Origin: Escherichia coli
GTDB lineage: Bacteria; Pseudomonadota; Gammaproteobacteria; Enterobacterales; Enterobacteriaceae
Assembly (NCBI RefSeq): GCF_003334815.1
Contig: NZ_QOWO01000006.1
DNA length: 64,000 nt
Reading direction: 5' to 3' (one strand)
Positions within the stretch are counted from its first letter, which is position 1, and each line of letters begins with the position of its first letter. Under the pieces are notes generated by a model, which saw only the letters and a list, made by a program, of their open reading frames with translations, did no database searches and was not told the DNA's origin. Position numbers and translations under genes: made by a program. Shown in pieces: positions 280-395 of this stretch.

Positions 280-295
280 ACGCAAACGTGTGCGT
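280..295. promoter_or_regulatory. PurR operator-like palindrome in the purC upstream/leader region
   Basis: ACGCAAACGTGTGCGT is a near-perfect 16-bp palindrome resembling the PurR box; purC is a PurR regulon member. Confidence 0.55.
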
Positions 296-340
296 CTGCA
301 GGAAAACGCGATTTTAGCGGTAATTCGCACGAAATTTGTT

Positions 341-395
341 TGTCGGACGTAGTTCGGATAAGGCGTTCACGCCGCATCCGACAAAACATCCGGCA
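341..395. repeat. REP-like element in the purC leader
   Basis: CGGATAAGGCGTTCACGCCGCATCCG core typical of REP sequences, flanked by imperfect inverted arms. Confidence 0.7.

What the first reader, a model, noticed from the sequence alone, without database searches (positions are those of the whole stretch)
280..395. PurR-type operator and a REP element stacked between the bamC terminator and the purC start
A near-perfect PurR box palindrome (280..295) lies just after the bamC terminator, followed by a REP-like element (about 341..395) and then the purC ribosome-binding site. A REP hairpin placed in the leader between operator and start codon could affect leader stability or translation.
Basis: partly seen in the sequence, partly recalled or inferred. 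Interest (0 to 1): 0.2.

Follow-up and report, generated by a model that had tools for sequence, protein, structure and literature searches.

The report
purC operator, promoter and leader REP
This is the well-known purine-repressor binding site on the E. coli purC promoter, followed by a common repeat element that landed in the untranslated leader of Escherichia only; it is real but ordinary, and the repeat looks dispensable for purine control.

Summary
The window is E. coli K-12 bamC–purC–ypfJ. ACGCAAACGTGTGCGT at 280-295 matches the PurR consensus at 15 of 16 positions. It is the exact site that ChIP-chip reported for purC. A y-type REP lies at 349-382, and in K-12 it sits inside a longer hairpin spanning 342-394.

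Published SMRT-Cappable-seq puts the purC transcription start at window 286, inside the operator. An extended -10 (TGaTATGAT, 271-279) abuts the bamC terminator T-tract. The leader is therefore 163 nt and the REP lies at +64 to +97.

Comparison with 25 other Enterobacteriaceae species shows the same terminator/-10/operator module but leaders of about 60 nt. Escherichia carries an insertion of about 100 bp, made of a 79-nt REP-bearing segment plus a second copy of about 22 bp of the target. All 5426 complete E. coli genomes have it.

Variation among strains is concentrated in the insert. The insert does not hide the ribosome-binding site in predicted folds. Term-seq lists no 3' ends in the leader. 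So the REP most likely has little effect on purC.

One untested idea came out of this. PurR bound 10 bp past the bamC terminator may block read-through, which is 40% in M9 and 11% in rich medium.

The parts
27..236 (+). 3' end of bamC coding sequence (stop TAA 234-236)
   Evidence: ORF list; RefSeq annotation of identical E. coli sequence
243..270 (+). bamC intrinsic terminator: hairpin 243-264 (9 bp, 6 G-C), T-tract 265-270
   Evidence: Terminator scan; Term-seq 3' ends at 2597798/2597799 = window 269/268; SMRT-Cappable-seq end at 2597797 = window 270
271..279 (+). purC promoter, extended -10 type: TG 271-272, TATGAT 274-279. No recognisable -35, because that position lies inside the terminator hairpin
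   Evidence: Read from the sequence. The hexamer ends 6 nt before the mapped start at 286. Invariant in 10 Escherichia sequences. The two-hexamer scan did not report it
280..295 (.). PurR operator, covering -6 to +10 relative to the purC start
   Evidence: 15/16 to consensus, 0/100 shuffles. Exact reverse complement of the ChIP-chip purC site ACGCACACGTTTGCGT (PMC3159470). Same 16-mer in 26 of the genome-scan loci, 2 of them in reverse orientation
286..286 (+). purC transcription start (A)
   Evidence: SMRT-Cappable-seq start 2597781 on the reverse strand for b2476, 88 reads, listed only in the first data sheet, which I take to be M9 (PMC6131387 Supplementary Data 1 and 2). Coordinate mapping
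286..448 (+). 163-nt purC 5' untranslated leader
   Evidence: Start at 286, ATG at 449
309..330 (+). Direct repeat copy 1 (GATTTTAgCGgTAATTCgCAC), the diverging copy of the ancestral leader segment
   Evidence: Local alignment score 20 against shuffles 12.2 +/- 2.0, 10 of 2000 reach it. Single copy in Citrobacter and Pseudocitrobacter. 4/22 variable columns
331..409 (+). 79-nt Escherichia-specific inserted segment carrying the REP
   Evidence: Absent from all non-Escherichia Enterobacteriaceae loci aligned. Present in 5426/5426 complete E. coli genomes and in E. albertii. Its non-REP flanks are single-copy per genome
349..382 (+). y-type REP, a single occurrence. On the + strand (mRNA sense) it reads GTAG (349-352) followed by the imperfect palindrome 354-381. 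The classical consensus GTCGGATGCGGCGTGAACGCCTTATCCGAACTAC reads on the minus strand
   Evidence: Exact 24-nt core; 34-nt shared unit; inverted repeat 354-366/369-381; hairpin -15.4 kcal/mol; weak Rfam naRNA4 (REP325) match, 30.9 bits against a gathering score of 59.5
342..394 (+). Composite hairpin of the K-12 type: REP hairpin nested in an outer stem (342-347 with 389-394, and 349-350 with 386-387), -26.5 kcal/mol for 339-396
   Evidence: Folds. The outer stem is broken in E. albertii and in strain SCPM-O-B-8794, so it is not conserved
410..433 (+). Direct repeat copy 2 (GATTTTAaaaCGtTAATTCaCAC), adjacent to the ribosome-binding site
   Evidence: 0/24 variable columns in 10 Escherichia sequences
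436..440 (+). purC ribosome-binding site AGGAG, 8 nt before the ATG
   Evidence: Sequence; GGAG invariant across 15 genera-level sequences
449..1162 (+). purC coding sequence (237 aa plus stop)

Best explanation
The stretch 243-448 holds a compact, conserved control module followed by a lineage-specific passenger repeat.

The module: the bamC intrinsic terminator (243-270) runs directly into an extended -10 promoter for purC (TGaTATGAT, 271-279). The 16-bp PurR operator (280-295) starts on the next base and covers -6 to +10 around the start at 286.

How repression works: when purines are plentiful, PurR loaded with hypoxanthine or guanine sits on the start site and keeps RNA polymerase from initiating. 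This mechanism is inferred from the operator's position; occupancy and purine dependence are published.

The leader: the 163-nt leader then carries one y-type REP (349-382). The REP arrived in the Escherichia lineage as part of an insertion of about 100 bp, made of a 79-nt unique segment plus a second copy of about 22 bp of the target.

Role of the REP: it forms a stable, independent hairpin in the mRNA. It is not part of the purine control and most probably has little or no effect on purC expression.
For: Shown:
- The operator sequence is statistically unique in the window.
- It is the same site that is occupied by PurR in vivo, more strongly with adenine (PMC3159470).
- The start maps at window 286 (PMC6131387). 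That start is listed in only one of the two condition sheets, the one whose bamC read-through (197/497 = 40%) matches the paper's M9 figure.
- The terminator 3' ends map at 268-270.
- The same 16-mer is present in 26 of the genome-scan loci. In all 28 sequences measured, 24 of them from non-Escherichia species, the box lies 16 +/- 1 nt after the terminator G+C stem.
- Inferred leaders are 59-63 nt in most genera, 162-163 nt in the Escherichia sequences.
- The insert is present in 5426/5426 E. coli genomes.
- Only the 34-nt REP is repeated elsewhere; the insert's flanks are single-copy.
- Among 10 Escherichia sequences, the -10, the box and DR2 do not vary at all; the terminator and the SD-ATG stretch each have a single variable column. 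296-409 has 18-54% variable columns, against 13% at purC third codon positions.
- Predicted P(unpaired) of the ribosome-binding site is 0.61 with the insert, against 0.40-0.49 without it.
- Term-seq lists no 3' end in the leader.

Inferred: steric exclusion of polymerase by PurR, and the neutrality of the REP.
Against: - The start rests on one high-throughput data set plus the sequence logic. The original primer-extension paper (Tiedeman et al. 1990) is not held.
- The strain sample used for the variability count was picked by divergence in this very region, which inflates variability there.
- The insert is fixed in E. coli and kept in E. albertii, and its last 15 nt (395-409) never vary. This could reflect some constraint.
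- The REP hairpin stays 98% paired, with only G-U substitutions.
- The Term-seq tables as held may be incomplete, and purC is poorly expressed in rich medium.
- Salmonella and E. fergusonii were not among the loci returned.
Confidence: 0.75

Rival explanations
1. PurR bound at 280-295 does double duty. Besides repressing the purC promoter, it acts as a purine-dependent roadblock 10 bp past the bamC T-tract. Polymerases coming from dapA-bamC then stall in the terminator and release, which insulates purC from upstream transcription when purines are abundant. This is compatible with the best explanation and adds to it.
For: - Read-through of this terminator is 40% in M9 and 11% in rich medium (PMC6131387).
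- Read counts from the dapA start: 255 end at the terminator and 197 pass in one sheet; 157 end and 17 pass in the other.
- PurR occupancy of this site rises with purine supply.
- PurR is an established roadblock at purB (He and Zalkin 1992, cited in PMC3159470).
- The spacing from the terminator stem to the box is fixed at 16 +/- 1 nt in 28 sequences.
- A polymerase with its active site at 268-270 would reach to about 285-290. This is general knowledge of polymerase footprints and an inference here.
Against: - The authors attribute the effect to an RNA 'attenuator' structure upstream of the termination site. Deleting it raised read-through in rich medium only.
- The fixed spacing is also explained by the need to fit a -10 element between the terminator and the operator.
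- No purR mutant data are available.
- Reads ending within 50 bp after the terminator are similar in the two conditions (45/497 against 21/195).
Confidence: 0.35
2. The REP hairpin is a working cis-regulator of purC itself. It tunes leader stability, pausing, premature (partly Rho-dependent) termination or translation in Escherichia.
For: - The REP is inside the leader at +64 to +97.
- The hairpin is stable, -15.4 to -26.5 kcal/mol.
- It is fixed in all E. coli genomes and retained in E. albertii.
- Stem changes seen are G-C to G-U in the mRNA sense.
- REPs can act as leaky, partly Rho-dependent terminators and as decay barriers (bioRxiv 10.64898/2026.03.23.713779).
Against: - No 3' ends in the leader in Term-seq.
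- The ribosome-binding site is not occluded in folds.
- The hairpin starts 68 nt from the 5' end, so it cannot act as a 5'-terminal protective stem (established knowledge of RNase E and RppH access; inference).
- No compensatory changes.
- The insert varies at least as fast as synonymous sites.
- At least 12 genera regulate purC with the same operator and no REP.
Confidence: 0.15
3. The REP matters for the upstream gene, not for purC. On the 10-40% of dapA-bamC transcripts that read through the terminator, it serves as a second 3'-exonuclease barrier or leaky stop, the classical intercistronic REP role.
For: - Read-through transcripts dapA-bamC-purC-ypfJ exist.
- REPs in tandem gene pairs are associated with upstream-biased expression and stabilise the upstream message.
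Against: - The bamC terminator hairpin already supplies a 3' barrier 80 nt upstream.
- No 3' ends near 382-395 in Term-seq.
- The median 3' extension of read-through reads is 343-359 nt, well past the REP.
Confidence: 0.15

Closest known systems
PurR operators of the E. coli pur regulon (purC site; He et al. 1990, Cho et al. 2011)
   Same: It is that site. The 16-bp sequence is identical to the published purC operator, with the central CG, in vivo occupancy and purine-dependent binding.
   Different: Nothing differs. The only detail worth noting is its position. Cho et al. state that PurR sites generally lie between -35 and -10. This one lies just downstream of an extended -10 and covers the start (-6 to +10), and it abuts the terminator of the upstream gene.
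REP / BIME elements of E. coli, y type (Gilson, Stern, Higgins; Ton-Hoang et al. 2012, PMC3333891)
   Same: 34-nt imperfect palindrome with GTAG 5' of the foot and the two-base stem mismatch. Exact match to the y core. Many copies per genome.
   Different: It is one of the minority of single REPs (84 of 584 in K-12) rather than part of a BIME pair. It sits downstream of a promoter, in a 5' leader, rather than only in a 3' or intercistronic position. The insertion that carries it is flanked by a duplication of about 22 bp, which the IS200-like transposition model does not predict.
purB roadblock repression by PurR (He and Zalkin 1992)
   Same: PurR bound downstream of an elongating polymerase. 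Here the elongating polymerases would be those reading through from dapA-bamC.
   Different: At purB the operator lies inside the transcribed gene of the regulated promoter. Here the operator is also the promoter operator of purC, and the roadblock role is only my inference and is untested.

Membership tests
PurR operator (pur regulon) | 16-bp imperfect palindrome matching ACGCAAACGTTTGCGT with the central CG step | tested here: met
   15/16 match with CG at 287-288. It is the only match in 64 kb, and 0/100 shuffles reach it
PurR operator (pur regulon) | Occupied by PurR in vivo, with binding increased by purines | not testable with these tools
   Published ChIP-chip lists exactly this sequence for purC, with log2 enrichment 2.08 and 1.52 in its two conditions (with and without adenine) (PMC3159470)
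PurR operator (pur regulon) | Placed where binding interferes with transcription of a purine gene | tested here: met
   The box spans -6 to +10 of the mapped purC start. The start is listed in only one of the two condition sheets, the one I take to be M9
PurR operator (pur regulon) | Conserved at the orthologous position in related genomes | tested here: met
   Same 16-mer upstream of purC in 26 genome-scan loci. Spacing to the terminator is constant
REP (y type) of E. coli | 30-40 nt imperfect palindrome able to form a hairpin | tested here: met
   349-382. Arms 354-366 and 369-381 are 85% complementary. Hairpin -15.4 kcal/mol
REP (y type) of E. coli | Conserved GTAG immediately 5' of the palindrome foot, and a non-complementary pair of bases in the stem (PMC3333891) | tested here: met
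   GTAG at 349-352 on the + strand. AA at 360-361 lies opposite GC at 374-375
REP (y type) of E. coli | Sequence match to the y consensus and many copies per genome, all extragenic | tested here: met
   24/24 core match. Six copies in the window against 0 expected. Median of 6 places per E. coli genome for the 196-nt query, against 1 for the non-REP flanks. It lies between bamC and purC
BIME (paired REPs) | [quoted passage not shown] | tested here: not met
   Only one REP core lies between 237 and 448. CATCCGGCA at 386-394 repeats the last 9 nt of a REP, but it is absent from E. albertii and from one E. coli lineage
Structured regulatory leader RNA (riboswitch, attenuator) | Match to a curated RNA family, or conserved covarying structure that controls the ribosome-binding site or a terminator | tested here: not met
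   Rfam gives only a sub-threshold REP325/naRNA4 hit. No compensatory pairs. The whole-leader fold has z = -1.5. The ribosome-binding site stays accessible

The most novel reading that the evidence does not exclude
The tight stacking of terminator, promoter and operator is functional in a second way. PurR bound 10 bp beyond the bamC T-tract acts as a purine-sensing roadblock. It turns a leaky terminator (about 40% read-through in minimal medium) into a tight one (about 10% in rich medium). On this reading, the published 'condition-dependent termination' at dapA-bamC is at least partly PurR control of read-through into purC-ypfJ.
Probability: 0.3. Interest if true: 0.4.

Novelty: already known. 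Interest (0 to 1): 0.15.

Why it matters
It matters little for discovery. The PurR operator of purC and REP elements are textbook features of E. coli K-12, and this window is identical to K-12.

Three points have modest value:
- They show clearly that the REP in this leader is an Escherichia-only addition to an otherwise conserved 60-nt leader. This gives a natural with/without comparison for anyone testing what a REP does in a 5' leader.
- The insertion is bracketed by a duplication of about 22 bp, which does not fit the transposition model usually assumed for REPs.
- They offer a testable alternative, a PurR roadblock, for a published case of condition-dependent terminator read-through.

Tried and rejected
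- The original purC papers (Tiedeman et al. 1990, PMID 2120198 / PMC526926) are not held. The start therefore rests on SMRT-Cappable-seq.
- The 'purC' hits in PMC2760140 were partial-word matches ('purchased') and gave nothing.
- The Cappable-seq GTF (PMC4782308) is truncated when stored. PMC6061677 and PMC3159470 have no supplements held. The Salmonella start-site paper (PMC3356629) is not held.
- The two-hexamer sigma-70 scan finds no promoter at 271-279 because there is no -35. I read an extended -10 instead, and the mapped start fits it.
- Rfam gives only a sub-threshold naRNA4 (REP325) hit, which simply reflects the REP.
- A leader open reading frame (336-443, TTG start, 35 codons) was rejected. 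It has no ribosome-binding site and is frameshifted in strain SCPM-O-B-8794.
- Occlusion of the ribosome-binding site by the insert was rejected from the folds.
- Pairing of the leader 5' end with CAGAC at 399-403 was rejected. It depends on T297, which only K-12 has among the 10 Escherichia sequences aligned.
- A larger duplication that includes the ribosome-binding-site region (CACACC...) is not significant, with 292 of 2000 shuffles reaching the score.
- The idea that the whole insert is a copy of a longer repeat was rejected. Its flanks are single-copy and similarity to other REPs stops at 34 nt.
- Covariation support for the hairpins is nil at this depth.

Full report
**Identity of the region.** Bases 1-1400 of the window are 100% identical to E. 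coli K-12 MG1655 and many other strains. Every one of 5426 complete E. coli genomes has the region. RefSeq annotates the genes in window order as bamC, purC, ypfJ and tmcA, all on the K-12 minus strand. Matching the purC ATG (window 449) to K-12 position 2597618 gives K-12 coordinate = 2598067 minus window coordinate.

**Checking the observation.**
- Bases 280-295 read ACGCAAACGTGTGCGT. This has one mismatch to the PurR consensus ACGCAAACGTTTGCGT. It is the only such site in the 64 kb window, and none of 100 shuffles gave a match with at most one mismatch.
- The bamC terminator is a 9-bp hairpin at 243-264 followed by TTTTTT at 265-270.
- An exact 24-nt REP core lies at 356-379 on the minus strand. 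There are six such cores in the window against none expected.
- Aligning the six shows that the shared unit is 34 nt, 349-382, and that similarity stops there.
In K-12 the REP hairpin is nested in an outer stem, 342-350 with 386-394.
- The ribosome-binding site AGGAG is at 436-440 and the ATG at 449.

**What is already published on these elements.**
- The ChIP-chip study of the PurR regulon lists ACGCACACGTTTGCGT as the purC site. This is the exact reverse complement of 280-295. Its coordinates fit once the offset of about 1978 bp between genome versions is applied. Occupancy was stronger with adenine (PMC3159470).
- SMRT-Cappable-seq lists one start for purC (b2476), at 2597781 on the reverse strand, which is window 286. 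It records 88 reads, of which 58 end at 2596861 (window 1206) and 19 run on into ypfJ (PMC6131387).
- That start appears in only one of the two condition sheets. In that sheet bamC read-through is 197/(255+197+45) = 40%, which matches the paper's M9 figure. I therefore take it to be M9. The absence of the start from the rich-medium sheet fits repression by purines.
- Term-seq places the bamC 3' ends at 2597798 and 2597799, which are window 269 and 268 (PMC7815308).

**Anatomy of the control module.**
- The start at 286 lies inside the operator, which therefore spans -6 to +10.
- Six bases upstream of the start is TATGAT (274-279), preceded by TG at 271-272. This makes an extended -10 promoter.
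- The place where a -35 would sit (about 251-256) is inside the terminator hairpin, and no -35-like hexamer is there. This explains why the two-hexamer scan reported nothing.
- So the terminator T-tract, the -10 and the operator follow one another without a spare base.
- Repression by steric exclusion of polymerase is inferred from this geometry.

**The REP is in the leader.** With the start at 286 and the ATG at 449, the leader is 163 nt and the REP occupies +64 to +97.

**The REP itself.** In the mRNA sense it reads GTAG (349-352) followed by the imperfect palindrome 354-381, with the characteristic AA/GC stem mismatch. These are the features that define E. coli REPs in PMC3333891. It is a y-type REP. 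It is also one of the minority of single REPs (84 of 584 in K-12), because there is no second REP core in the spacer.

**Comparison with other genomes.**
- A scan of one genome per species with PurC returned 80 loci.
- The same 16-mer lies upstream of purC in 26 of them, among them Enterobacter, Citrobacter, Pseudocitrobacter, Phytobacter, Leclercia, Kluyvera, Pluralibacter, Pseudescherichia, Cedecea and Siccibacter. In two of these loci it is in the flipped orientation.
- In all 28 sequences measured, the box begins 16 +/- 1 nt after the G+C stem of the bamC terminator.
- The distance from the box to the ATG is 65-68 nt in most of these species, against 168-169 nt in E. coli and E. albertii. 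The inferred leaders are 59-63 nt against 162-163 nt.
- The alignment shows one block of about 100 bp that is present only in Escherichia.
- Its edges are an imperfect direct repeat: 309-330 GATTTTAgCGgTAATTCgCAC and 410-433 GATTTTAaaaCGtTAATTCaCAC.
- The relatives have a single copy, for example Citrobacter ATATTTATCGTTAATTCACAC immediately before CCAGGAG.
- The repeat scores 20 against 12.2 +/- 2.0 for shuffles, and 10 of 2000 shuffles reach it.
- The event therefore added a 79-nt unique segment (331-409) that holds the REP, plus a second copy of about 22 bp of the target.
- The non-REP parts of the segment occur once per genome in all 5426 E. coli genomes. The segment is therefore not a copy of a longer dispersed repeat.
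- Transposition of the IS200 type, the model for REP mobility, is not expected to make such duplications (PMC2817692). I leave the origin unexplained.
- Other lineages carry unrelated structured insertions in the same leader: Kluyvera 124 nt, Enterobacter sp. BIGb0383 94 nt, Siccibacter 81 nt and Shimwellia 82 nt. The leader evidently tolerates insertions.

**Is the REP constrained or functional?**
- All 5426 complete E. coli genomes carry the REP-bearing leader at 90% identity or more, and E. albertii has it too.
- In ten Escherichia sequences, the -10, the PurR box and repeat copy 2 do not vary at all. The terminator and the stretch from the ribosome-binding site to the ATG each have one variable column.
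- The stretch 296-409 has 18-54% variable columns. This compares with 13% at third codon positions of the first 104 purC codons in the same strains.
- The strains were chosen by divergence in this region, so the contrast is inflated. The distribution within the region is still informative.
- The REP hairpin stays 98% paired through G-C to G-U changes, with no compensatory double changes. The outer stem is broken in the two most divergent sequences.
- In predicted folds the REP is an independent hairpin, -15.4 kcal/mol alone and -26.5 with the outer stem.
- The ribosome-binding site is no less accessible with the insert (0.61) than in Citrobacter (0.40), Enterobacter (0.44) or an in-silico deletion (0.49).
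- Term-seq tables list no 3' end between 2597619 and 2597781.
- The 35-codon frame at 336-443 has no ribosome-binding site and is frameshifted in one strain.
- The whole-leader fold is not unusual (z = -1.5).
- Rfam returns only a sub-threshold naRNA4 (REP325) match, which is just the REP.

**Best explanation.** This is the known PurR-controlled purC promoter, squeezed against the bamC terminator, followed by a leader that in Escherichia acquired a passenger REP. Purine control does not need the REP, because at least a dozen genera have the same module without it. The REP probably has little effect on purC. I put 0.75 on the whole picture and somewhat less on the neutrality of the REP.

**Rival readings.**
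- The REP could tune purC itself by pausing, partly Rho-dependent termination or decay. A recent preprint reports such roles for REPs in 3' regions. Nothing here supports this, and several results argue against it (0.15).
- The REP could serve the read-through dapA-bamC transcripts as a second decay barrier (0.15). However, the terminator hairpin is already there, and read-through reads extend a median of 343-359 nt, well past the REP.

**A by-product worth testing.**
- The same paper reports that read-through of this terminator is 40% in M9 and 11% in rich medium. It ascribes this to an upstream RNA 'attenuator'.
- The PurR box begins 10 bp after the T-tract. PurR occupancy rises with purines. 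PurR is a proven roadblock at purB (He and Zalkin 1992, cited).
- A polymerase terminating at 268-270 would have to occupy DNA up to about 285-290. This is an inference from general polymerase footprints.
- PurR may therefore reinforce the terminator when purines are abundant. I give this 0.3-0.35.
- qPCR amplicons downstream of 286 would be confounded by transcripts from the purC promoter itself.

**Verdict.** The features are already known. Interest is low.

Noticed in passing
window 309-330 and 410-433: An imperfect direct repeat of about 22 bp brackets the 79-nt REP-bearing insert, while relatives have one copy. This is a target duplication far longer than usual and is not expected from IS200-like REP mobility.
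   Followed up: partly
window 243-295: Published read-through of the bamC terminator is 40% in M9 and 11% in rich medium. The PurR box starts 10 bp after the T-tract, so a PurR roadblock is a possible cause that the authors did not consider. The spacing from terminator stem to box is 16 +/- 1 nt in 28 Enterobacteriaceae sequences.
   Followed up: partly
window 1179-1206: The hairpin after purC (CTTGCCGTGC...GCACGGCAAG) has no T-tract. Transcripts end at 1206 in SMRT-Cappable-seq, where the end is called novel, and 19 of 88 reads continue into ypfJ.
   Followed up: no
L018 1377-1500; L021 1407-1500; L031 1420-1500; L030 1419-1500: There are independent, unrelated structured insertions in the purC leader of Kluyvera (124 nt), Enterobacter sp. 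BIGb0383 (94 nt, containing the REP-like CCGGATCGCGTGAACG), Siccibacter and Shimwellia. The leader is a recurrent landing site.
   Followed up: partly
L021 1401-1416 and L064 1432-1447: In two Enterobacter-like genomes the PurR box has its single asymmetric position flipped (ACGCACACGTTTGCGT as read towards purC).
   Followed up: no
window 41686-41770 and 52685-52769; 29771-29955: The REPs at 41716 and 52715 share about 25 nt of flank beyond the REP, so a larger composite element is likely. The REPs at 29801 and 29901 are tandem copies 100 bp apart with identical 3' flanks.
   Followed up: no
window 365-378 (alignment A2 columns 130/135 and 121/144): Three E. coli lineages carry C-to-T changes in the 3' arm of the REP. 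These keep G-U pairs in the purC mRNA sense but would be mismatches on the opposite strand. There are too few events to interpret.
   Followed up: partly
window 395-433: The last 15 nt of the insert (CACACCAGACAGCAAAA) and repeat copy 2 are invariant across E. coli and E. albertii, while the rest of the insert varies. This may reflect constraint on the region just upstream of the ribosome-binding site.
   Followed up: no
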